64,000 nucleotides of DNA from Pelagibacteraceae bacterium AG-426-I15 (GCA_003213135.1 QCNT01000004.1:12956-76955); one strand, 5' to 3'; numbered from the stretch's first letter, positions 2,541 to 41,724 are shown. Program-made: numbers and translations. The notes: generated from the sequence alone by a model not told the origin.

Positions 2541-2882
2541 TTATTTTCCTGGGTTTTTAGAAAAATGTTCATTGAATTTATTTTTTATTTTTCTAAATTT
2601 TTCATTTTCAGGTAGTGGCTCCTTTCTCTTCGTAATATTAGGCCAAATTTTAGAATAATCCTTGTTAACCTCTAACCACTTATCCTTGTCTTCTCCTTTG
2701 TAATCAACATCCGCAACAATTGCATCGATCGGGCATTCAGGTTCACAAACCCCGCAATCTATACACTCGTCAGGATTTATTACAAGCATATTTTCTCCTT
2801 CGTAAAAGCAGTCGACCGGACAAACTTCTACACAATCAGTTAATTTACACTTTATACATTCATCTTTAACAATATATGTCAT
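2541..2882 (-). CDS. fdxA: 7Fe ferredoxin (3Fe-4S + 4Fe-4S), FdxA type
   Basis: [50 protein letters not shown] carries the classic FdxA cysteine pattern. Confidence 0.92.
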
Positions 2883-3308
2883 ATTTTTTTTTCATTCAAA
2901 GCTTCTAGTTTTGCTTCACCAATTAATTTATCTTCCACATAAAGTAAACCTCCAATTCGTCTCATCAGCGTGCTTTCATACATATCAGATTTTCCATCTG
3001 ATAATATTATCTTCCACAAAATCTTTATTACTTCTTTCTTAAATTCTAAAGTATTTTTTTTTTATTTCTTGAGTAAATTTCAAAATCTGATTTGAATTCT
3101 GCTCTTCTAATTCTGCCTTGTTTACAATTTCTTCAATATTTTTTTTAACTCCAATAGATTTTAAAAAGTTAATTATAATCATTTTTTCGTTATCTGTATA
3201 ATTTTCATCTATTTTCGCAGCATGTATTAATAATGCAGTGATTTTAATAAAATCATTAACACTACTAGCGTTTTCTTTGTTTTCATTTTTATTAAATATA
3301 TCTAGCAT
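2879..3308 (-). pseudogene. TerB-family (tellurite-resistance TerB-like) protein, frame broken once in a coding-strand A10 run
   Basis: The N-half ORF 3039-3308 reads ALLIHAAKIDENYTDNEKMII. An unlisted C-half frame down to TGA 2881-2879 reads EVIKILWKIILSDGKSDMYESTLMRRIGGLLYVEDKLIGEAK. Together they give the two-repeat TerB layout of ~142 aa. The break is at T10 on the + strand, 3054-3063. Confidence 0.8.
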
Positions 3309-10666: not shown

Positions 10667-11068
10667 TTATTTATTTATTTTTAAAATTTTCCAAACACCA
10701 GATGTAACTGCCACTATGCCTTCAGCATTAACAATTTCACATGTTAGAAAAACTAGTGTCTTAGTTTTTTTTTGAACCTTTACCTTTGCTACTAATTTAT
10801 CTCCAAGTTTAGCAGCAGATATAAACTTCATTTCCAAGGATATGGTCACACATCTTTTATTATCAGCTGATTGATGTGCAGCGTTTCCCATCCCAGTATC
10901 TGCAATAAAAGTAAGAAATCCTCCGTGTGCCATCCCGGCAGTATTCAGATGCATCTCTTTAACTTCTGTTTCGTACTCAAAGGTAGTACTATTTATCTTT
11001 TTACCTTTAAGTCCACCTACTTGTTTTGCGTAGCCTGAATTAGTTTCGTCCATATCTTCTTTTATCAT
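10667..11068 (-). CDS. PaaI/4HBT-family hotdog-fold thioesterase
   Basis: HLNTAGMAHGGFLTFIADTGMG motif at ~130 aa. Confidence 0.75.
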   Translation of the reverse strand: MIKEDMDETNSGYAKQVGGLKGKKINSTTFEYETEVKEMHLNTAGMAHGGFLTFIADTGMGNAAHQSADNKRCVTISLEMKFISAAKLGDKLVAKVKVQKKTKTLVFLTCEIVNAEGIVAVTSGVWKILKINK

Positions 11069-17692: not shown

Positions 17693-17761
17693 TTATATAG
17701 GTCTCATAATATAGATTTAAACTCTTTAATTACAATAGTTTCTTTGATATCTGATTGTTAT

Positions 17762-17838
17762 GCGCCTGTAGCTCAACTGGATAGAGCGTTTGGCTACGGA
17801 CCAGGAGGTTCTGGGTTCGAATCCTAGCAGGCGCGCCA
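17762..17838 (+). tRNA. tRNA-Arg (anticodon ACG), CCA encoded
   Basis: Hand-folded cloverleaf. Acceptor GCGCCTG/CAGGCGC, D stem GCTC/GAGC, anticodon loop CTACGGA, T arm CTGGG-TTCGAAT-CCTAG, discriminator G plus CCA. Confidence 0.9.
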
Positions 17839-17839
17839 T

Positions 17840-19024
17840 ATGAGATTAAATAACAATAAGTTCTTAATACTTTTATTTTTATTAACAGTCTTAAGCAGAC
17901 TATTTTCAATCTATTTTTATGGCGATACAGATCTTGTAAACGAATGGCGAGTAATTTTACTAAATTTTGAAAATGATGGTATATTTGGATCAAGAACCGT
18001 TGACGGCGAAGTTGTACCGAATATATTTATGCCTCCTCTTTATGGCATATTCTTAGTTTCATTAAATTATTTTATTGGAAACATCGAGATTTTAACCCTT
18101 ACGGTTTTGTATATTCAATTAATTTTGTCAACGTTGTCTGTTTTTATTATTTTTAATATACTAAAAAAGTTTTTTTCAAAAAAAACTTGTATAATTTCTA
18201 CATTAATTTTTTCTCTATTTCCATTACACGTATATTCAGTTGGTCAAATATCTTCTATAACACTGCAAATATTTTTTTTAACAATTTTTTTCTATTTTAT
18301 TGTAAAATTAACTGAGTTTAATAATTTAAAGTATTTTATACTGCTCTCGGTCATATCTTCTACTTTAATTTTACTAAGAGCTGAATTTGTTTTATTTTTT
18401 ATTTTATCACTTATTTATATTTATTTTAATAAAAAAAATTTTAAAAAAATTTTAATCTCTTTTCTCCTAACGCTTATATTAATATCACCATATTTGGTGA
18501 GAAATTATATAATATTTGACAAGATAGTTATTACACAGTCTTTTGGGTATAATTTGTGGAAGGGTAATAATGAAAATTTAAATGTTGATGGTTATTACCC
18601 AGATTTAAATGTTAATCTAAATAAAAAAATTAATGATCTTGGATATAATGTTAAATATGATTTATTAATAGATAAGATATACCAACAAGAAGCGATAGAA
18701 TTTATTAAGAAACACCCTTCTGATATTACGATTCTATATTTTAAAAAGATATTTTCTTTTTTGTTTTTGGACTTGAATTCAAATTATCCTAATTATTACA
18801 ATTTTGCACATATAATACCGAAAATTTTGATTTCTTTTACTACACTATTTGGAATGTACTACGGACTAAGAAACAAAATATTTGGTTACTTCTCATCATA
18901 TTTTTTAATTAATATATTGGTAATATCTATTTTTTTTATTTTACCCAGATATAGTCTGGCACTATTTCCATGCCAAATTATATTAACATCAATATACTTT
19001 GATAAGTTTTTCAAAAATACCTAA
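17840..19024 (+). CDS. GT-C fold glycosyltransferase, ArnT/PMT (family 39/83-like) polytopic membrane protein
   Basis: About 11 TM segments, a PPLY loop, and an SFGYNLWKGNN motif after the TM bundle as in ArnT/PMT_2-type enzymes. Confidence 0.6.
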   Translation: MRLNNNKFLILLFLLTVLSRLFSIYFYGDTDLVNEWRVILLNFENDGIFGSRTVDGEVVPNIFMPPLYGIFLVSLNYFIGNIEILTLTVLYIQLILSTLSVFIIFNILKKFFSKKTCIISTLIFSLFPLHVYSVGQISSITLQIFFLTIFFYFIVKLTEFNNLKYFILLSVISSTLILLRAEFVLFFILSLIYIYFNKKNFKKILISFLLTLILISPYLVRNYIIFDKIVITQSFGYNLWKGNNENLNVDGYYPDLNVNLNKKINDLGYNVKYDLLIDKIYQQEAIEFIKKHPSDITILYFKKIFSFLFLDLNSNYPNYYNFAHIIPKILISFTTLFGMYYGLRNKIFGYFSSYFLINILVISIFFILPRYSLALFPCQIILTSIYFDKFFKNT

Positions 19025-19027
19025 AAA

Positions 19028-20373
19028 CTATTTTTTATTTACTAAGGCGACAACGAACGACATAGATAAAAAAATTATTAAAGAATTACCAGTAGTAAAA
19101 AAACTACCTGATGATTTGATTGGGAATGCTTCTATAAAAAAAATATAAAAAAAGGGACTACTTAGGGTTTTGTAAACATTATTATTAAATTTAAAATAAA
19201 AGTCATAAATTATTTTGAGAAAAATAAAAAATACTATCACAAAACCCACAATCCCTATTTCTGAAAATATTTCTAAGTAATAATTATGAGGATGCGTATT
19301 ACAAGTAGTTCTCTCTAGTTTTGGATCAACAGGCCTTTTGGGGCATAGAAGTCTAAAAGATTTTATACCTCCTCCTATCAAAGGATTCATTTTCCATGTC
19401 TCGTAAAAAGTGTCAAATTCCATGACATGGTGAGGAATCTTTTTCCCCTCAGGATCAGCAACTAAAGTTCCAAGAAAGTTGGGTTCTCTTTTTTCTCCTA
19501 TAATTCTTTTTTTATAAACATCTAAAATATTCAAAGAGTAATGAAAGAAAGCATTATAATGATTAAAAAAGTTTTTGTTTGTTCCAATGAGAGAACCAAA
19601 AACTAAGGTAAAAAATAAAATTATAAAAATTAAATTTCTCCTTAAAGTTTTCGTTGTGACCAAAATTAAAATATTTGCTAATATAAATAAAGCAAAAGGC
19701 ATTCTGTTTCCGGAAAAATATAAGCTAGCTAAAACTAAGGAAAACACAGAACATAATAATATTATTAAAAAAATTTTTTTTTTAAATTTGAAAAAAATAG
19801 GAAAAAGATACAATATAAAAAAAGAAAATCTTTGTATAAAGCTCCCAGCTATTGCTTCATCGTAAAAAATACCAGTTGTTTTTACCGGAAACGGACTAAC
19901 TAAACCTAATAAATTTTTTCCGTTATAAAACTGGTAAAAAATATCGATACATACTGAAAATAGTAATGCAGAGTATGTAAAAAAAAATTATTTTAAAATT
20001 TATAATATTATTATCAACAAATAATCTTATAGCAAAGTATAGTATCAAATATCTTAAATATAAAAATGATTTTAGTAAAACAGTATAATCATCTTTATTA
20101 AACTCATTAATATAGTTTTCAATTGTATTCCAAATTGAATTGAAAATAATAAAAAAAAAATAAAAATACTATAGCTTTATCAATGAAATTTAATTTAATT
20201 CTAAAACCTTTAAAATATAAAAAAATACCTGAAACTAAAATTAAAGTAATATTTAAATTTAGAAAAGAATTACCAACCATATAACATATCGGTACTAAAG
20301 AAATAATAATTGAATTTAGAATAATAAAAATATTATTTTTTTCTTTTGAGATTTTACTTATTGATAAGCTCAT
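19028..20373 (-). pseudogene. O-antigen ligase / O-antigen polymerase family (Wzy_C) membrane protein, frame broken twice at homopolymers
   Basis: Three consecutive frames read as one membrane protein. N part is 20119-20373. The middle part is an unlisted frame (..IIFNSIWNTIENYINEF..LRYLILYFAIRLF..). C part is 19028-19813, with NPLIGGGIKSF and THPHNYYLEIFSEIGIVG Wzy_C motifs. Confidence 0.75.
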
Positions 20374-21397
20374 CTAAAATGCCGGTAGTCGAAAATTTTT
20401 GTTTCCATTTTGGGTAATGTTTTTTAAATTTTTTCATGTCAGATATATACCAAATGTGGTCTCCGACTCTATTATTTTTAATATAAATTTTTTTTACTTT
20501 TAAATTCATTTTTTCTTCAACATAATTAATTGCTTCTATAATACTGCAATTAGACTTTCTGCCACCTCCGATATTGTAAAATTCCCCTCTTTTTGGTTTT
20601 TTATAATATTCCCAAAAACAACCTACCAAGTCTTCACTATGAATGTTATCTCTTACTTGTTTACCTTTGTACCCAATAAGATTGTATCTTTTATTTTTTA
20701 TTATTGTTTTGACCAAAAAAGATAAAAAACCATGAAGTTTTGTCCCGGAGTGCAAAGGTCCCGTGATGCATCCAGCTCTAAAACAAACTGTCCTAAGACC
20801 TATGTTCTTTCCGTACTCTTGAACCAAAAGGTCGGCATATGTTTTTGAAACCCCAAAAAAACTGTGAACAGCATTATCAATATTCATATTTTCAGTTATT
20901 CCATTATAAAATTTATGATTTGATTTAATTTCCCACCTAGTTTTTTTCTCAACCAAAGGTAACTTATTTGGGTTATCACCATAAACTTTATTAGTGGACA
21001 TAAAAATAAAAGGCGAATCAGGGCAGTATGTTTTTGTTAATTCTAATAAATTTAGCGTTCCCTTAGCGTTTATATCAAAGTCAACCTGCGGTTTTTTTAA
21101 AGCCCAATCATGAGATGGTTGAGCAGCGTTATGAATTATAACTTTTATTTTTTTTTTATATTTTTTGAAAATTTTTTCTAATTTACCATAATTTCTAATG
21201 TCAATACTATAATGGTCATATTTTTTGTAATTTTGAATTAAATTACTTTTTACCCAATTATTGTCACCATCTTTGCCAAAAAAATATTTTCTTTGATTAT
21301 TATCAATTCCAATTATATCAAAACCTTTCTCGTGAAATAATCTAACTGACTCAGCTCCCACCAAACCACATGATCCTGTTATCAAAGCCAAACTCAC
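20354..21397 (-). CDS. NAD-dependent epimerase/dehydratase (extended SDR)
   Basis: N-terminal ITGSCGLVG Rossmann motif and a YADLLVQEYG region (YxxxK-type). Confidence 0.8.
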   Translation of the reverse strand: MSLALITGSCGLVGAESVRLFHEKGFDIIGIDNNQRKYFFGKDGDNNWVKSNLIQNYKKYDHYSIDIRNYGKLEKIFKKYKKKIKVIIHNAAQPSHDWALKKPQVDFDINAKGTLNLLELTKTYCPDSPFIFMSTNKVYGDNPNKLPLVEKKTRWEIKSNHKFYNGITENMNIDNAVHSFFGVSKTYADLLVQEYGKNIGLRTVCFRAGCITGPLHSGTKLHGFLSFLVKTIIKNKRYNLIGYKGKQVRDNIHSEDLVGCFWEYYKKPKRGEFYNIGGGRKSNCSIIEAINYVEEKMNLKVKKIYIKNNRVGDHIWYISDMKKFKKHYPKWKQKFSTTGILDELINK

Positions 21398-22422
21398 AAG
21401 AAGAACCTTTTAAGTTTTTTATTCATTTTTATCCAATTAAAAATATCGTTTATAATATCTTTTTTAGAATACCTGGGTGCCCATTTGTAATATTTTTTAA
21501 TCTGAGAATTATTGGTCACATAATAAGGTATATCATACAAAGATGTATTTTTTTTTCTTGAGAAAGAAATTTTTGTTTTTGTTAATTCCTGGCAAAATAA
21601 GGTAAGCTCATTCAATGAAATTGCATTTCTAAGTCCGCCACCTATATTAAAAGTTTTATTGTTCACTTTATTAAATAGCTTAATCTGTTTTAAAATAATA
21701 TTACATACATCTTTTATATGGATAATATCTCTAACTTGATTACCTTTACCACCAAAGCCGATATAAGATAATTTTCTTTTAAAAATATGTCTTCCAACCC
21801 ACATTGAAACGAAGCCTTGATCTTGCTTTCCAAATTGCCAAGGTCCGGTTATTACACCCAATCTATTAATTATGTATTTTATATTAGAAACATAGTTAAA
21901 TTCTTTTATAAGTTCTTCAGAACTTAATTTGCTCAAACCATAAAGTGACTTTACCCCTTGTGTTGAAAAATTTTCATCAATTTTTTTGTTAATTTTTAAT
22001 TTTTTATTTAAATTTAAATTTTTAACAATTTTTCTTAATGCAGATATTGAATAGACTCTACTAGATGATAAGAAGATTATTTTTGCATTATCATTAATGC
22101 ATTTTTTTAGAATGTTATAGGTTCCCAAAAAGTTAGTATTTATAACTCTATCTGGGTCTTTTTTTGAAACTTCAATAGAGGGTTCGGCACAACAATCTAA
22201 AACTAAATCTATTTTAGGCAGTCTTTTAATTTTATTATAATTTTCAATATCATATTTAAAGTTTTTAATTTTGTGAAAATTAATCCTCTTAAGATTTACT
22301 TCTGAACCCTTTCTAAATAGATTATCTAAACTGATAATTTTAGAACTTTTTAATTTTTTTTTTAAAAAAATAGCCAAATTTGAGCCAACAAAGCCACATC
22401 CCCCTGTTATAAGTATTCTCAT
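21394..22422 (-). CDS. NAD-dependent epimerase/dehydratase (extended SDR, CDP-paratose-2-epimerase-like)
   Basis: MRILITGGCGFVGSNLA Rossmann motif and YGLSKLSSEELI catalytic YxxxK. Confidence 0.8.
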   Translation of the reverse strand: MRILITGGCGFVGSNLAIFLKKKLKSSKIISLDNLFRKGSEVNLKRINFHKIKNFKYDIENYNKIKRLPKIDLVLDCCAEPSIEVSKKDPDRVINTNFLGTYNILKKCINDNAKIIFLSSSRVYSISALRKIVKNLNLNKKLKINKKIDENFSTQGVKSLYGLSKLSSEELIKEFNYVSNIKYIINRLGVITGPWQFGKQDQGFVSMWVGRHIFKRKLSYIGFGGKGNQVRDIIHIKDVCNIILKQIKLFNKVNNKTFNIGGGLRNAISLNELTLFCQELTKTKISFSRKKNTSLYDIPYYVTNNSQIKKYYKWAPRYSKKDIINDIFNWIKMNKKLKRFFL

Positions 22423-22463
22423 TATTAAATATTTACCCTATTAATTAGGAAAAATAAAATTAT

Positions 22464-23180
22464 ATGCTAACTATTTTAATTCCATTAAGAGATGAAGTTG
22501 AAAATTTACCTCATATTGTGAGAAGTTTTGAGGAAAACATCAAAGATATAAATTATGAGGTAATTTTAATTAATGATTTTAGTAAAGATAAAACTTTTGA
22601 GGAATCAGAGAAAATTTGTGCAACGAATAAAAATTACAAGATACTTGATAATAAAAAAAAGGGTTTAGGCGGAGCTTTAAATTTAGGTATCAGTGTAGCA
22701 AGAGGAGATTTTATTTGTATAGTTATGGCAGATTTATCTGACGATGTGAATGATATCAAGAGGTATTACCACACAATCAAGGAAAAAAAAATGGACGCAG
22801 TATTTGGTTCAAGATTTTTAAAGTCATCTAAAGTAGAAGGTTACGCAATAAATAAATTAATCTTAAATAGAATTTTTAATTTTTTTGTAAAAATTTTATT
22901 TTTAAGTCCATATAATGATTTTACAAATGCTTTTAAAATTTATAAGTCTGAAGTTTTAAAAAGTTTTTTACCGCTAATTTCCGAGAGTTTTAATATTTTT
23001 TTGGAAATGCCTCTTAAAATTATATCAAGGAAATATAGTTATGAAATTATCCCAATTAATTGGTACAATAGAAAAAAAGGTAAGAATAAATTCAATATTA
23101 AAGAACTACGATCAAAATATCTTTTCACATTAATCCATTGCTTTACAGAAAAAATACTATTAAGAAAAAGGATAAAATGA
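22464..23180 (+). CDS. Family 2 glycosyltransferase, polyprenyl-phosphate sugar synthase-like (ArnC/Dpm1-like)
   Basis: ILIPLRDE..EVILINDFSKDKT..GLGGALNLG..ADLSDD motifs at ~240 aa. Confidence 0.75.
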   Translation: MLTILIPLRDEVENLPHIVRSFEENIKDINYEVILINDFSKDKTFEESEKICATNKNYKILDNKKKGLGGALNLGISVARGDFICIVMADLSDDVNDIKRYYHTIKEKKMDAVFGSRFLKSSKVEGYAINKLILNRIFNFFVKILFLSPYNDFTNAFKIYKSEVLKSFLPLISESFNIFLEMPLKIISRKYSYEIIPINWYNRKKGKNKFNIKELRSKYLFTLIHCFTEKILLRKRIK

Positions 23181-23260
23181 ATCTATCTTTAAAAAATGCA
23201 GTATTAATTTTTTTTGTAATAGTACTATTGATACTGTTTATTCTATCAATCGTATTATAA
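23177..23260 (+). CDS. Hypothetical 27-aa single-TM micro-ORF (MNLSLKNAVLIFFVIVLLILFILSIVL)
   Basis: Its ATG overlaps the GT2 stop (ATGA at 23177-23180). The sequence is uniformly hydrophobic. No other support. Confidence 0.25.
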   Translation: MNLSLKNAVLIFFVIVLLILFILSIVL

Positions 23261-24023
23261 GTAAACTAGGGAAAGTAAAAATAAACCTAGTATAATTCTG
23301 TATCCCAAAATTAAATTTAAGTTAAATTTTTTTAAATAAACTAAAAAATATTTAATAGATAAATACGAGAATATAAATGTTAAAAAAATAGTTAATATTG
23401 ATTGCAAATTAAGGAAAGTGTCATTTTTTTCAGCTAAAGCATATAAACCATAAATGCCTGTACCTGATAAAGCTGGTATCGAAAGTAGAAAAGAAATTTT
23501 TGCAGCATCTTCTCTTTTAAAATTTAATATTCGAGCACCCGTCATTACGATACCAGATCTACTTACACCAGGTATAATTGCTAAAACTTGAAAACAACCA
23601 ATAATAACAGCATTTTTTTTTTGTAAAATGTTTTTTTATATTTTTATTAGAATTAAATTTATCTGCAAAAAACAGCAAGATACCAAAAACTATTGTTGTC
23701 CAGCCAACAATTTCATAAGTTCTTAAATTAGGTATCAAATTGTAGCTTACAGTAATATATCCAAATATAAACAAAGGCAGAGAAGCCGCAATCACCTTAA
23801 AAAACAATTTTTTGTTTCTCCCAAAATTTATAATTTCATCCTTAAAGAAAAAAGTTACCGCAAACAACGAACCTATGTGGGCGCTGATATTTAGTAATAA
23901 CTCTGTTTCTTTAAAACCAAATAAATTTGCAAGTAAATTTAGGTGCGCCGATGAACTCACTGGGAGAAATTCAGTTATACCCTGAACTATTGAAATAATA
24001 ATAATTTGAAAAATATTTTCCAT
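23255..24023 (-). pseudogene. uppP: Undecaprenyl-diphosphatase UppP/BacA, frame broken once in a coding-strand A10 run
   Basis: The N part (23559-24023) has QGITEFLPVSSSAHL. The correct continuation AVIIGCFQVLAIIPGVSRSGIVMTGARIL is in the next frame and runs into ORF 23255-23545. The break is at T10 on the + strand, 23613-23622. Confidence 0.85.
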
Positions 24024-30921: not shown

Positions 30922-32080
30922 ATGTTTTCTAAAATGAAAGTTTTACAAGTTATACCAAAATTAGGCTATGGAGGAGCAGAGACAGGGTGTTACGATCTCG
31001 CACATTTTCTGGCAGAAAAAGATTGTAAATCTTATATAGTTACTAGTGGAGGGCCATTATTAAAATTTATAAAAAAAAATAAAGTTAAAGTTATAAGACT
31101 TCCAGTTCAATCAAAGAATCCAATTTTAATTTTATTAAATACTTTAATTTTAACTTTAATTATATTATTTCTTAAAATTGATATTGTTCATGCGAGAAGT
31201 AGAGCTCCCGCCTGGTCTTGTTTGCTTTCCTGTTTTTTTACCGGAAGAAAATTTGTAACAACTTTTCACGGGACTTATAACTTTAGCAATAAAGTAAAAA
31301 AAATTTTATAATTCAGTAATGGTTCGTTCAGATCTTGTAATTGCAGGATCAAATTTTATTTTTGATCATATACATGAAAATTATAATGATCTTTTAACAT
31401 CAAAAAAACGAATTCTAGTTATTTTCAGAGGGATTAATACAGACTACTTTAGCAATTCCTCGGTAACTAATGAAAAAATAAGCAAAATAAACTTAGACTT
31501 AAAATTGAGTCCTGAAACTTTTAAAATATTACTGCCCGGAAGACTCACAAAATGGAAGGGACAAGAAATGTTTTTAGAGTCACTCAGTTTACTAAGAGTC
31601 AAGTATGGTAGAGATAACTTTCAAAGTATTATATTAGGAGATCATCAAGGTAGAAAAGTATATTTTAAAAAATTATTGTCCATGGTCGAACAGTATCGCT
31701 TAAATAAAAATGTAATTTTTGTTCGTCATTTAAGTGAAATGCCAGTCATTTATTATATATCAGATGTTGTTGTTTCTTCATCAATCGAGCCAGAAGCTTT
31801 TGGAAGAGTTTCAGTAGAAGCCCAGGCTATGCAAAAACCAATCATAGCAAGTGACCTGGGAGGATCCAAAGAAACAATCAAAGATAAAAAGAGCGGATTT
31901 TTATTTAAAAACAATAACCCAGATTCTTTGGCAGAAAATTTAAATAATTTAATTGATATGGGCAAAGACAAGTTGCAATCGATAGGAAATGAGGGTAGGA
32001 AAAACGTATTAATTAAATTTGATGTTGAAAAAATGTGTCAAAGTACTTTTGCAGAATATAAAAAGTTGTTAAAAATTTAA
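30922..32080 (+). pseudogene. Family 4 (GT-B, group 1) glycosyltransferase, frame broken once at an A8 run
   Basis: The N half (30922-31311) reads KVLQVIPKLGYGGAETG..FVTTFHGTY. The C half (31319-32080) has EAFGRVSVEAQAM..P.IASDLGGSKE. Removing one A at 31296-31303 gives ..NKVKKFYNSVMVRSDLVIA.. and a 385-aa protein. Confidence 0.8.
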
Positions 32081-34603: not shown

Positions 34604-34810
34604 ATGCCAAAATTGAAAACAAAAAGCTCAGCAAAAAAAAGGTTTAAAATTACAAAATCCGGTAAGGTTAAAATGCCACAAGCAAATAAAAGACACGGGA
34701 TGATTAAAAGAACTAATTCACAAATAAGAAAACAAAGAGGCTCTACAATAATGTCTAAACAAGACTCTAAAATTGTAAAATCTTACATGCCTTATAGCTT
34801 GAGAGGATAA
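34604..34810 (+). CDS. rpmI: 50S ribosomal protein L35
   Basis: [15 protein letters not shown].. signature, positioned between infC and rplT. Confidence 0.93.
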
Positions 34811-40467: not shown

Positions 40468-41724
40468 ATGAAAACTTCAATTTACAACAATTCTGGAAAA
40501 CTAGTATTTGTTTTATTATCTATCAGCTTGTTTTTAAGTTTCATTTTTGGAATCGATTCGATTGGAAGCGGCGGAATGATTGCAGATTTTTATAGCACAT
40601 GGCCATATGTTGAAATCTTATCTAAAGAATTTTATGCTTTGGGCGGAAAATATTCAGACATAACGCCGCTAGGATATATGGTTTTATCCTGGTTTTATTA
40701 TATTTTTCAAGATCAGACTATAGTTAGACTAATTTACTGTTTTTTATCTATTTTACTGCCTGTCTTATTTTATTGTGCATTAAAAAATAATTATGAAAAA
40801 CTAGATAGTAATTTTTTACTACTTTTTGCATCATTACTTTTTTTATTTCCATCTTTTAGATCCGGCGCAGTTTGGGCTAATAATAATGTACTTGCAGATA
40901 TATTTTTTGTTTCTTTTTTAATTTTTTATATTAAATGGCTTAAAAAAAAAGATTTTGAAAAAATTCGGTTAAATTTATTTTTCCAATTATTATTTTTAGC
41001 ACTAACTGTATATACAAGGCAGTATTATGCAATCTTCTATTTATATGCTATGTATATTTATTTTCAAAAATTAAGTTTTAAAAATTTTATTATTACTTCT
41101 TTTATTGTTTTTATCCTGGCAGTTCCAGGTTTATTGATGGTATTTTCTGATGAAATTTTATTAAGAACAACAATATTTAGTCCAAAAATTTATAATACTA
41201 TTCTTATCAGTCCATCAATTATGACTTTATACTTATTACCAATTTTCTTTTTACTATTTGTTCAAAAAAAATATATTATTGATTTTAAAAATAAAAATTT
41301 TATATTACCATTTTTTTTTATAAGTTTATTAATTTTAATAATCTCCTATTTTTTTGATTATAATATATCTCATGGCGGTGGTTTCTTCATAAAAATATCA
41401 CATCTTTTTTTTAAAAATAATTTTCTTGGAATTATAACGGCTATTCTTGGTTTATATATTTTATATACAATAGCCAAAGAAAATAAAAATGATGCTATAA
41501 TTATATTACTATTAATTTTTGCTTTTCCGGCTAGATATATTCCTCAGAAATATTTTGAACCTATGTTTTTTATTTTTTTCTTTTTAATGCTAAATTCAAA
41601 ATTTCCAAAACTTTTTTTAAGTAATAAAAAAAATATTATTTATTTAGCCATATACTTATTGATTTATTTGTCTTCTGGAATTCTAAACGATATATTCAAA
41701 ATAACTAAAACGTTTGTTATTTAA
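40468..41724 (+). CDS. Hypothetical polytopic membrane protein, possibly a GT-C-like glycosyltransferase
   Basis: About 12 predicted TM helices. The architecture resembles ArnT-like enzymes, but I recognise no diagnostic motif. Confidence 0.35.
   Translation: MKTSIYNNSGKLVFVLLSISLFLSFIFGIDSIGSGGMIADFYSTWPYVEILSKEFYALGGKYSDITPLGYMVLSWFYYIFQDQTIVRLIYCFLSILLPVLFYCALKNNYEKLDSNFLLLFASLLFLFPSFRSGAVWANNNVLADIFFVSFLIFYIKWLKKKDFEKIRLNLFFQLLFLALTVYTRQYYAIFYLYAMYIYFQKLSFKNFIITSFIVFILAVPGLLMVFSDEILLRTTIFSPKIYNTILISPSIMTLYLLPIFFLLFVQKKYIIDFKNKNFILPFFFISLLILIISYFFDYNISHGGGFFIKISHLFFKNNFLGIITAILGLYILYTIAKENKNDAIIILLLIFAFPARYIPQKYFEPMFFIFFFLMLNSKFPKLFLSNKKNIIYLAIYLLIYLSSGILNDIFKITKTFVI

What the first reader, a model, noticed from the sequence alone, without database searches (positions are those of the whole stretch)
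17840..24023. Polyprenyl-phosphate-linked envelope glycosylation cluster in which three genes carry homopolymer frame breaks
The cluster contains an ArnT/PMT-like GT-C transferase, a Wzy_C-family O-antigen ligase/O-oligosaccharyltransferase-like protein and two extended-SDR sugar-nucleotide epimerase/dehydratases. It also has a Dpm1/ArnC-like GT2, a possible 27-aa TM peptide and UppP. Together they form a plausible self-contained pathway. The steps would be: modify a nucleotide sugar, load it onto undecaprenyl phosphate, flip it, transfer it to lipid A, LPS core or a protein in the periplasm, and recycle the carrier. The ligase has two frame breaks and uppP has one. A further GT4 gene at 30922-32080 is also interrupted at an A/T run of 8-10 nt. 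In other bacteria, homopolymer tracts in surface-glycan genes act as phase-variable contingency loci. In SAR11-like cells surface glycans are thought to be major phage and grazer targets. If the breaks are real, this would be a poly(A)-based switchable envelope-modification system. If not, it is still an uncharacterised Arn-like pathway.
Basis: inference. Interest (0 to 1): 0.65.

Follow-up and report, generated by a model that had tools for sequence, protein, structure and literature searches.

The report
SAR11 envelope-glycan genes with single-base frame breaks
A real but uncharacterised cell-envelope sugar-transfer gene cluster of the ocean bacterium Pelagibacter carries one-base insertions in A/T runs that are private to this genome record. 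Only two of them recur in a second assembly of the same clone, and wild relatives are almost always intact, so a programmed on/off switch is not supported.

Summary

Every frame break is one extra base in an A/T run:
- ligase: A9 at 19979 and A10 at 20151
- uppP: T10 at 23613
- GT4: A8 at 31296

The 19936 tract is not a break. A fifth identical break (T10 at 3054) hits a TerB-domain gene that has nothing to do with glycans.

Near-identical (at least 99.3%) metagenome contigs cover 55.7 kb of the window. These five +1 runs are the window's only indel differences from them, and those contigs carry the in-frame lengths. The one exception is a wild contig with A9 at 19979.

Three contigs from one public run match the window with 0 mismatches in 13 kb. 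They reproduce the 19979 and uppP breaks but have the in-frame length at 20151 and in GT4.

Long runs are not enriched in these genes.

Best reading: a mix of real, recent slippage mutations in one clone and consensus errors. This is not a demonstrated contingency switch. Interest is moderate to low.

The parts
17762..17838 (+). tRNA-Arg(ACG), ending one base before the GT-C start codon
   Evidence: ARAGORN. The same tRNA sits just upstream of the GT-C gene in the syntenic SAR11 locus L011.
17840..19024 (+). GT-C fold membrane glycosyltransferase (PMT_2 family, 394 aa, no periplasmic domain), intact
   Evidence: Pfam PMT_2 at 30.8 bits. AlphaFold model has pLDDT 87 and pTM 0.88. Foldseek PDB hits with E<=0.001 are all STT3/AglB oligosaccharyltransferases; PMT, PglB and ArnT follow at E 0.003-0.02. 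There are 1448 homologues of about 395-406 aa in marine metagenomes. E35/W36 are invariant in the first loop.
19028..20373 (-). Wzy_C-family protein (O-antigen ligase / O-oligosaccharyltransferase / polymerase family). It is 447 aa when intact and is split here by two +1 runs
   Evidence: Pfam Wzy_C. It is 447 aa and intact in 10 near-identical contigs. The repaired window protein is identical to that of L002.
19979..19987 (.). A9 run (T9 on the coding strand): +1 frame break in Wzy_C
   Evidence: A8 in 10 distinct near-identical contigs and in the Logan contigs of 9 runs. A9 in the same-clone contig L062 and in wild contig L023.
20151..20160 (.). A10 run: second +1 frame break in Wzy_C, not reproduced elsewhere
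   Evidence: A9 in 11 of 11 near-identical contigs, in 9 runs, and in the same-clone contig L062.
20354..21397 (-). Extended SDR sugar-nucleotide epimerase/dehydratase (SDR1, 347 aa), intact
   Evidence: Pfam Epimerase. The closest solved relative is CDP-tyvelose 2-epimerase, E 1e-37.
21394..22422 (-). Second extended SDR (SDR2, 342 aa), intact
   Evidence: Pfam Epimerase. The closest solved relative is CDP-tyvelose 2-epimerase, E 9e-32.
22464..23180 (+). GT2 polyprenyl-phosphate glycosyltransferase-like enzyme (238 aa, no C-terminal membrane helices), intact
   Evidence: Pfam Glycos_transf_2. NCBIfam hits to AglJ and ArnC are below cut-off. PDB: Dol-P-Man synthase 5mlz at E 3e-17, then GtrB and ArnC.
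23177..23260 (+). 27-aa single-helix membrane peptide (MNLSLKNAVLIFFVIVLLILFILSIVL). Its ATG overlaps the GT2 stop codon (ATGA)
   Evidence: Translation. A 28-aa homologue sits in the same position after GT2 in L011 and is absent in L012 and L013.
23255..24023 (-). UppP/BacA undecaprenyl-diphosphate phosphatase. It is 255 aa when intact and is split here into 154 + 96 aa
   Evidence: Pfam BacA on both pieces. The full-length match is 210 bits when repaired. The break separates the EFLPVSSSAH motif from the PGVSRSG motif.
23613..23622 (.). T10 run (A10 on the coding strand): +1 frame break in uppP
   Evidence: T9 in 10 of 10 near-identical contigs and in 7 runs. T10 in the same-clone contig L009.
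30922..32080 (+). GT4 glycosyltransferase. It is 385 aa when intact and is split here into 129 + 253 aa. It abuts thrS
   Evidence: Pfam Glyco_transf_4 plus Glycos_transf_1. It is intact in 8 contigs that hold the whole gene, including the same-clone contig L048.
31296..31303 (.). A8 run: +1 frame break in GT4, not reproduced elsewhere
   Evidence: A7 in 9 distinct contigs, in 3 runs and in the same-clone contig L048.
2879..3308 (-). TerB-domain gene (142 aa when intact), outside the finding. It is broken by the same kind of +1 run at 3054-3063 (T10 versus T9)
   Evidence: It is 142 aa and carries Pfam TerB in 10 of 10 near-identical contigs. The repaired reading is open.

Best explanation
THE LOCUS. 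This is a conserved Pelagibacteraceae envelope-glycan cluster beside tRNA-Arg. It has two modules.
- Module 1: two tyvelose-epimerase-like SDRs tailor a nucleotide sugar. A membrane-helix-less DPM1/ArnC-like GT2, probably with its coupled 27-aa membrane peptide, loads the sugar onto polyprenyl phosphate. A compact GT-C enzyme then transfers it to an envelope acceptor on the periplasmic side.
- Module 2: a Wzy_C-family enzyme handles Und-PP-linked glycan, and UppP dephosphorylates the released Und-PP.

THE FRAME BREAKS. They are not a built-in switch. Each is a single extra base in an ordinary A/T run, private to this genome record.
- Two breaks (Wzy_C at 19979 and uppP at 23613) are most likely real, very recent replication-slippage mutations of this one clone. 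Such slips are common in an AT-rich lineage reported to lack MutS/MutL. They are tolerated because these functions are dispensable or redundant in that clone, and they may leak through transcriptional slippage on the A10/T9 runs.
- The other breaks (Wzy_C at 20151, GT4 at 31296, probably TerB at 3054) are most likely consensus errors of the assembly, or later slips.

SHOWN VERSUS INFERRED.
- Shown: gene families, the GT-C fold, the exact break sites, the tract lengths in relatives and in the second assembly, and the lack of tract enrichment.
- Inferred: the pathway order, the donor and acceptor, that the second assembly is the same clone, the mutational origin, and any leakiness.
For: - Families and fold.
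- Synteny: the same gene set around tRNA-Arg in another SAR11 species (L011), but with Wzy_C on the other side of tRNA-Arg and GT-C and much higher divergence than the flanks. Wzy_C is 35%, GT-C 40% and UppP 50% identical, against 84% for gltD.
- Near-identical metagenome contigs cover 55.7 kb of the window. Apart from scaffold N-gaps and divergent contig ends, the only indels against them are five +1 runs in the window.
- One base removed per tract restores ORFs identical to the wild proteins.
- Three Logan contigs of one run (L062, L009, L048; 13,055 nt) have 0 mismatches to the window. They share A9 at 19979 and T10 at 23613 but carry A9 at 20151 and A7 at 31296.
- Wild contig L023, on a different SNP haplotype, also has A9 at 19979.
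- There is no tract enrichment.
- mutS and mutL are reported missing in SAR11 (PMC12374537).
- Frameshifts inside A/T runs can be rescued in part by transcriptional slippage in other AT-rich bacteria (PMC3017870).
- GT4 sits in a gene block conserved across the genus.
Against: - The platform and origin of both the window's genome and the second run are hidden, so 'independent' and 'same clone' are inferences. They rest on 0 mismatches in 13 kb and on low contig numbers.
- If both records derive from one amplified DNA preparation, the shared breaks could be amplification artefacts.
- All five differences are +1, which could indicate a systematic technical bias.
- No raw reads or RNA were available, so heterogeneity within the culture and transcript slippage are untested.
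- A real null of uppP would need a second Und-PP phosphatase. That cannot be checked in a 64-kb window.
Confidence: 0.5

Rival explanations
1. All five breaks are technical artefacts. They would be homopolymer miscalls, or polymerase slippage during whole-genome or library amplification, in the data behind this genome record. The organism's genes would all be intact.
For: - Every break is a one-base length error in a run of 8-10. The genes are otherwise perfect and identical to wild proteins.
- Five broken sites in about 55 genes would be an extraordinary pseudogene load for a streamlined free-living bacterium.
- The load is typical of error-prone assemblies. Nanopore Pelagibacter genomes carry 1-88 such frameshifts each (bioRxiv 10.64898/2026.04.03.716430).
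- Two of the four tracts that could be tested are not reproduced in the second assembly of the same clone.
- A non-glycan gene is hit too.
- All five differences are +1, suggesting a systematic bias.
Against: - A9 at 19979 and T10 at 23613 are reproduced by an independent k-mer assembly of another run.
- A9 at 19979 also occurs in a short-read metagenome contig of a different haplotype.
- No housekeeping gene and no intergenic run in the covered 55.7 kb is affected, although the four runs of 10-11 that are not broken (in SDR1, SDR2, an alpha/beta hydrolase and LysRS) sit in intact genes. This selectivity is only weakly significant, about p 0.05 by my count.
- In the nanopore study, assembly frameshifts concentrated in long essential genes, which is not the pattern here.
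Confidence: 0.22
2. The tracts in Wzy_C and uppP, and perhaps GT4, are true contingency loci. Reversible slippage would switch the surface glycan on and off within SAR11 populations, giving subpopulations that escape phages or grazers.
For: - Two records of the same clone differ at 2 of 4 tracts. Fast switching would produce exactly that.
- The off-length at 19979 has arisen on two different haplotypes.
- The genes affected in the replicated cases are a functionally linked pair, since a Wzy_C ligase releases the Und-PP that UppP recycles.
- The cluster is low in GC and evolves fast, as expected of a phage-exposed surface trait.
- SAR11 lacks mismatch repair, which raises slippage rates.
Against: - In-frame lengths are found in 9-11 distinct near-identical contigs per tract and in every metagenome run with a spanning contig. 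That is 9 runs for the ligase tracts, 7 for uppP and 3 for GT4.
- Only one wild off-state contig was found.
- Long runs are not enriched in these genes over codon-shuffled expectation.
- The uppP tract is not positionally conserved in another species.
- A TerB gene carries the same lesion.
- Longer runs in the same genes never vary, for example the T10 at 19774.
- Contigs cannot show minority alleles, so this is only weakly tested.
Confidence: 0.15
3. The out-of-frame uppP (A10) and Wzy_C (T9) alleles are stable and functional. RNA polymerase slippage on the run would restore the frame in a fraction of transcripts, as in Buchnera and Blochmannia, giving reduced but sufficient expression.
For: - There is a single indel inside a run of 9-10 in an otherwise undamaged gene.
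- This is the precedent described in PMC3017870, where about 30% of transcripts were full-length.
- uppP is normally important, yet the clone evidently grows.
Against: - The frameshift is not conserved. Every wild relative has the in-frame DNA length, unlike the conserved endosymbiont cases.
- No RNA data hold the cluster.
- This explains tolerance of the lesion, not its origin.
Confidence: 0.08

Closest known systems
Polyprenyl-phosphate-sugar modification systems built on a GT2 synthase plus a GT-C transferase. Examples are ArnC/ArnT (lipid A Ara4N), GtrB/GtrC (O-antigen glucosylation), Rhizobium RgtE/RgtA-D (GalA on lipid A and core) and Francisella FlmF2/FlmK.
   Same: - A DPM1/ArnC/GtrB-like GT2 lies next to a GT-C fold membrane transferase, with sugar-nucleotide tailoring enzymes beside them.
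- The host is an alphaproteobacterium, as in the Rgt system.
   Different: - The GT2 lacks membrane helices and is instead followed by a coupled 27-aa membrane peptide.
- The GT-C is only 394 aa with no periplasmic domain. By fold it is no closer to ArnT (rank 20, TM 0.42) than to oligosaccharyltransferases and PMTs.
- There is no flippase and no ArnA/B/D.
- The SDRs resemble CDP-tyvelose 2-epimerase rather than ArnA, UXS or LpsL.
- The donor sugar and the acceptor are unknown.
Homopolymer phase-variable (contingency) surface-glycan genes, for example Campylobacter poly-G LOS/capsule genes, and Haemophilus and Neisseria lgt/lic genes.
   Same: - One-base length changes in a homopolymer inside surface-glycan ORFs.
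- An off-length is seen on two haplotypes at one tract.
   Different: - The tracts are ordinary A/T runs at the density expected from composition.
- In-frame lengths dominate in all natural samples examined.
- A non-surface gene is hit as well.
- No within-clone length distribution has been measured.
Poly(A)-tract frameshifts rescued by transcriptional slippage in AT-rich endosymbionts (Buchnera, Blochmannia; PMC3017870).
   Same: - An AT-rich reduced genome.
- A single indel within a run of 9-10 in otherwise intact genes.
   Different: - Here the frameshift is private to one clone and is not conserved across populations.
- No transcript data exist.
Assembly-induced homopolymer frameshifts in Pelagibacter genomes (bioRxiv 10.64898/2026.04.03.716430).
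   Same: - Split genes at A/T runs.
- A comparable density.
   Different: - Two of the breaks recur in an independent assembly.
- None of the breaks lies in the long essential genes that such errors usually hit.

Membership tests
Phase-variable contingency locus (simple-repeat switch) | A slippage-prone simple repeat lies inside the ORF or promoter | tested here: met
   The in-frame alleles carry runs of 7-9 and the window carries runs of 8-10.
Phase-variable contingency locus (simple-repeat switch) | Tract length varies at high frequency and reversibly within a clonal population | not testable with these tools
   Only contigs were available, not raw reads. As an indirect hint, two records of apparently the same clone differ at 2 of 4 tracts.
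Phase-variable contingency locus (simple-repeat switch) | Both on and off lengths are common among natural strains and populations | tested here: not met
   In-frame lengths occur in 9-11 distinct near-identical contigs per tract and in all 3-9 runs with spanning contigs. There is one off-state wild contig (L023, at 19979). Minority alleles are invisible in contigs.
Phase-variable contingency locus (simple-repeat switch) | Repeats are over-represented or maintained in the switching genes beyond what composition predicts | tested here: not met
   Codon-shuffle test for runs of 8 or more: Wzy_C 4 observed versus 3.0 expected (p 0.34), UppP 1 versus 0.9 (p 0.62), GT4 1 versus 1.2 (p 0.74). The uppP tract is not positionally conserved in L011.
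Phase-variable contingency locus (simple-repeat switch) | Confined to surface or host-interaction genes | tested here: not met
   The same +1 lesion is found in a TerB-domain gene at 3054-3063.
Arn-type lipid A aminoarabinose pathway | ArnC-like GT2 that makes the Und-P-sugar | tested here: inconclusive
   A GT2 of the DPM1/GtrB/ArnC superfamily is present. It scores 43.9 bits against the ArnC equivalog cut-off of 529, is closer to Dol-P-Man synthase, and has no membrane helices.
Arn-type lipid A aminoarabinose pathway | ArnT-like GT-C transferase | tested here: inconclusive
   The GT-C fold is clear. ArnT is only rank 20 (TM 0.42), there is no PDB sequence hit, and the periplasmic domain is absent.
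Arn-type lipid A aminoarabinose pathway | ArnA (formyltransferase/decarboxylase), ArnB aminotransferase, ArnD deformylase and ArnE/F flippase | tested here: not met
   None is present among the ORFs at 17.8-24.0 kb. The SDRs are closest to CDP-tyvelose 2-epimerase.
UppP/BacA undecaprenyl-diphosphate phosphatase | Full-length BacA domain with the conserved E/S-x-H and PGxSRSG motifs | tested here: met
   The repaired protein matches PF02673 over positions 2-256 of 257 at 210 bits. EFLPVSSSAH and PGVSRSG are present. In the window the break separates the two motifs.
Wzy_C family (WaaL ligase / PglL O-oligosaccharyltransferase / Wzy polymerase) | Wzy_C domain within a protein of about 10-12 membrane helices | tested here: met
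   PF04932 at 56-60 bits against a cut-off of 31.7. The sub-type was not resolved: TfpM scores 25 bits, far below its cut-off, and there is no PDB sequence hit.
Frameshifted genes rescued by transcriptional slippage (endosymbiont type) | The frameshift is conserved across populations with no further gene decay | tested here: not met
   There is no further decay, but the frameshift is absent from all wild relatives apart from one contig at one tract.
Frameshifted genes rescued by transcriptional slippage (endosymbiont type) | A mixed mRNA pool containing in-frame transcripts | not testable with these tools
   No RNA run holds the cluster.

The most novel reading that the evidence does not exclude
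The A/T runs at 19979 (Wzy_C) and 23613 (uppP) are genuinely hypermutable in mismatch-repair-deficient SAR11. On/off variants of a surface-glycan ligase and its carrier-recycling phosphatase would arise recurrently and persist as a minority in wild populations. That would give the ocean's most abundant bacterium a stochastic route to change a phage or grazer target without gene exchange.
Probability: 0.15. Interest if true: 0.7.

Novelty: new member of a known kind. Interest (0 to 1): 0.38.

Why it matters
SAR11 surface glycans are thought to be the main targets of its phages. So far their variation has been explained by gene replacement in hypervariable islands.

If the ligase and uppP breaks are real, they show a second and faster layer of variation: slippage in long A/T runs in a lineage without mismatch repair. 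They would also show that a cultured clone can differ from its wild population in envelope chemistry. That matters for phage-host and physiology experiments done with such a strain.

If the breaks are artefacts, the practical lesson is that split envelope genes in AT-rich genomes must be checked against population data before they are interpreted.

Either way, the cluster itself is a widespread and experimentally untouched envelope-modification system. It consists of the GT2, a 27-aa peptide, a compact GT-C and two tyvelose-epimerase-like SDRs.

Tried and rejected
1. Identifying the source genome and its sequencing platform.
   - The window's own record is absent from the genome, contig and run look-ups.
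   - The run id is in no paper, and read laying refuses it.

2. Raw-read tract-length distributions.
   - All listed runs are kept only as contigs.
   - Minority alleles could therefore not be measured.

3. RNA evidence. No RNA run holds more than 2% of the cluster's words.

4. A two-tract pattern scan of metagenome contigs.
   - It returned a single contig.
   - That contig was informative, but it is no population sample.

5. Looking up the repaired GT4 protein.

6. Looking up the fragment ORFs for the ligase N-terminus, the TerB fragment and the GT4 N-terminus. None is on record.

7. Contig L042, which carries the GT4 C-terminal ORF alone. It turned out to be a chimeric assembly with the in-frame A7, not a second broken allele.

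8. The split kdsB in wild contig L034. The contig carries a scaffold N-gap in that region, which probably explains the split; it is not evidence of a frameshift.

9. The functional-clustering argument, that breaks hit only glycan genes. It was weakened by the TerB break. By my count the selectivity against housekeeping genes is only about p 0.05.

10. The idea that the 27-aa ORF at 17744-17827 is a peptide. It overlaps tRNA-Arg. The real 27-aa peptide is at 23177-23260.

11. Whether the cluster is the tRNA-Arg boundary of the genus-wide hypervariable region. This could not be decided, because no rRNA gene or large island is visible in the window's ORF map.

Full report
WHAT IS THERE

The window is about 29% GC. 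Its closest genomes in the species collection are Pelagibacteraceae single-cell genomes.

- 17840-19024 (+): a 394-aa PMT_2 protein.
- 19028-20373 (-): a Wzy_C protein, split into three ORFs.
- 20354-21397 (-) and 21394-22422 (-): two extended SDRs.
- 22464-23180 (+): a 238-aa GT2.
- 23255-24023 (-): BacA/UppP, split into 154 and 96 aa.
- 30922-32080 (+): a GT4, split into 129 and 253 aa, directly abutting thrS.

Further details:
- The PMT_2 protein has no sequence relative in the PDB. A model built on 35 homologues is confident (pLDDT 87, pTM 0.88). The 14 fold matches with E<=0.001 are all STT3/AglB oligosaccharyltransferases. Other GT-C enzymes (PMT, PglB, ArnT, ALG, Emb) follow at weaker E-values, with ArnT only at rank 20.
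- The GT2 is closest to Pyrococcus dolichol-phosphate mannose synthase, then GtrB and ArnC. It lacks their C-terminal membrane helices.
- A 27-aa single-helix peptide (23177-23260) starts on the GT2 stop codon (ATGA).
- Both SDRs are closest to CDP-tyvelose 2-epimerase (E 1e-37 and 9e-32).
- A tRNA-Arg(ACG) ends one base before the GT-C start.

HOW THE CLUSTER VARIES AMONG SAR11

- In SAG AG-349-F08 (L011) the same gene set lies between the thiolase gene and gltD, but Wzy_C is on the other side of the tRNA.
- Identities there are far lower than in the flanks. Wzy_C is 35%, GT-C 40%, UppP 50%, GT2 63% and the SDRs 62-71%, against 84% for gltD and 75% for thiolase.
- In two other species the SDR-SDR-GT2 trio sits inside large glycan islands. 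Those islands hold UDP-glucose dehydrogenases, GT4s, a Wzy_C, a DegT aminotransferase and methyltransferases.
- The GT-C family has more than 1400 marine homologues of about 395-406 aa. Their sources call them hypothetical or 'ArnT-like'.
- The cluster is therefore a real, fast-evolving, low-GC envelope-glycan locus with no experimental characterisation.
- It is not self-contained. It has no flippase, no priming transferase or Wzx, and no ArnA/B/D.
- From established enzymology, UppP serves the Und-PP released by a Wzy_C-type enzyme, not the Und-P released by a GT-C.

THE FRAME BREAKS

I aligned the window to near-identical metagenome contigs fetched through six of its proteins.
- 29 contigs in the first comparison cover 55.7 of the 64 kb. 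Twenty-seven are 99.4-100% identical and two are more divergent (96.8% and 97.3%). Later look-ups added more contigs at 99.2-99.98% identity.
- Apart from scaffold N-gaps and divergent contig ends, the only indels are five. In each the window has one extra base in an A/T run.

Tract by tract:
- 3054-3063: T10 in the window, T9 in 10 of 10 contigs. It breaks a TerB-domain gene (142 aa when intact).
- 19979-19987: A9 in the window, A8 in 10 distinct contigs.
- 20151-20160: A10 in the window, A9 in 11 of 11 contigs.
- 23613-23622: T10 in the window, T9 in 10 of 10 contigs.
- 31296-31303: A8 in the window, A7 in 9 contigs.

Other points:
- Removing one base per tract restores complete ORFs with no other damage. 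The repaired UppP and Wzy_C are identical to the proteins of the wild contigs.
- Logan contigs of metagenome runs agree with the in-frame lengths. Nine runs agree at the two ligase tracts, seven at uppP and three at GT4.

TWO OBSERVATIONS THAT ARGUE AGAINST 'ALL ARTEFACT'

First, three Logan contigs of a single run (SRR7041150: L062, L009, L048) cover 13,055 nt of the window with zero mismatches.
- The next-best wild contigs typically differ at about 2-8 sites per 10 kb, although one 4.6-kb contig also has none. This run is therefore very probably the same clone.
- These contigs carry A9 at 19979 and T10 at 23613, as in the window.
- They carry A9 at 20151 and A7 at 31296, the in-frame wild lengths. 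GT4 is an intact 385-aa gene there.

Second, one wild contig (MDTG01077307.1, L023) carries A9 at 19979 on a different SNP haplotype. Contigs L006 and L008, which share the flanking SNPs, have A8. The off-length at this tract has therefore arisen at least twice, or that assembly is wrong at that point.

The only other tract-length variant seen among the wild contigs is intergenic (34633-34640 in L047).

IS IT A SWITCH?

The evidence is mostly against a dedicated contingency system.
- In-frame lengths dominate every natural sample examined.
- A non-glycan gene carries the same lesion.
- Longer runs in the same genes never vary, for example the T10 at 19774 and the T10 runs in both SDRs.
- Runs of 8 or more are not enriched in Wzy_C, UppP or GT4 compared with codon-shuffled versions (p 0.34-0.74).
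- The uppP run is not positionally conserved in another species.
- GT4 belongs to a block with thrS, infC, rpmI, rplT and pheS that is conserved in at least 121 of 135 Pelagibacter genomes. A null allele of it is implausible, and it is indeed intact in the second assembly.

Limits of this test:
- Contigs cannot show minority alleles.
- No raw reads or RNA were available.
- High-frequency switching within cultures is therefore untested.

MOST LIKELY MECHANISM

SAR11 is reported to lack mutS and mutL (PMC12374537), and this window alone holds 108 A/T runs of 8 or more. In such a background, replication slippage at long runs should be the commonest mutation. That expectation is my inference from general knowledge of mismatch-repair-deficient bacteria.

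A clone started from one cell will then carry a few private frameshifts in genes whose loss it tolerates. I read the replicated Wzy_C (19979) and uppP (23613) breaks this way.
- They hit a functionally linked pair.
- They are the sole lesions in those genes.
- They may be leaky, because RNA polymerase slips on runs of 9-10. The precedent is the Blochmannia and Buchnera cases, where about 30% of transcripts were full-length (PMC3017870).

The unreplicated breaks (20151, 31296, and probably 3054) are best explained as consensus errors in this genome record. The density of split genes matches what error-prone assemblies of Pelagibacter show, 1-88 per genome. Later slips in a subline cannot be excluded.

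I give this mixed explanation 0.5, all-artefact 0.22, adaptive phase variation 0.15 and slippage-rescued stable alleles 0.08.

COMPARISON WITH KNOWN SYSTEMS

- The cluster works like the GT2 plus GT-C polyprenyl-phosphate-sugar systems (Arn, Gtr, Rgt, Flm).
- It fails the Arn membership test on ArnA/B/D/E/F, and the tests on ArnC and ArnT identity are inconclusive.
- It differs from those systems in its helix-less GT2 with a coupled micro-peptide, its compact GT-C, and its tyvelose-epimerase-like SDR pair.
- The breaks resemble contingency loci only in being homopolymer indels in glycan genes. Three defining features tested here are not met, and the decisive one, within-clone length variation, could not be tested.

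VERDICT

The annotation is right. 'Self-contained Arn-like' and 'switch' are not supported.
- Novelty: a new member of known kinds.
- Interest: 0.38.
- The most novel surviving reading is real hypermutable on/off variation of a surface-glycan ligase and its phosphatase in SAR11. I give it about 0.15 probability; it would be worth about 0.7 if true.

Noticed in passing
window 2879-3308 (run at 3054-3063): A TerB-domain gene (142 aa in 10 of 10 near-identical wild contigs) is split in the window by a T10 run where the wild contigs have T9. It is the same kind of lesion as in the glycan genes, but in an unrelated gene.
   Followed up: yes
window 17762-17840; L011 6581-6665: tRNA-Arg(ACG) ends one base before the GT-C start codon. 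The tRNA/GT-C adjacency is conserved in another SAR11 species, but there Wzy_C lies on the other side of the tRNA. This suggests gene replacement or rearrangement at a tRNA-anchored islet.
   Followed up: partly
window 23177-23260; L011 about 10700-10790: A 27-aa single-helix peptide is translationally coupled to the helix-less GT2 (ATGA overlap). It is conserved where the GT-C is adjacent (L011) and absent after GT2 in L012 and L013. It could be a membrane anchor for the GT2, analogous to DPM3.
   Followed up: partly
L012 7821-10738; L013 7869-10709: The SDR1-SDR2-GT2 trio recurs in other SAR11 species inside large surface-glycan islands next to UDP-glucose dehydrogenase genes. This hints that the donor sugar derives from UDP-glucuronate. 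In L013 the GT2 copy appears N-terminally truncated (the match starts at residue 57).
   Followed up: partly
window 34633-34640 versus L047: An intergenic A8 run between infC and rpmI is A9 in one wild contig (MDSY01106176.1). Besides L023, this is the only homopolymer length variant seen among the wild contigs.
   Followed up: no
window 23630-23636 (run X9): A low-depth Logan contig (depth 2 against about 10) in one metagenome run lacks one base in the neighbouring T7 run of uppP. It may be a minority frameshift allele or just read error.
   Followed up: no
window 40468-41724: A 418-aa ORF at 22% GC has no Pfam match. It lies between lepA and tRNA-Ser(GGA), is rich in long A/T runs, and is intact and identical in 13 metagenome contigs.
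   Followed up: no
L042 (ERZ842407 NODE_315396) 1-99: The first 99 nt of this metagenome contig are an inverted copy of window 31086-31184 joined to 31274 onward. This assembly chimera mimics a truncated GT4 gene.
   Followed up: yes
runs X3 and X17: A 2014 'marine metagenome' run and a 2018 run labelled with an organism name give contigs with identical depth (5.65), identical SNPs and the same longest record (224,584). They look like the same data deposited twice, so they are not independent witnesses.
   Followed up: no
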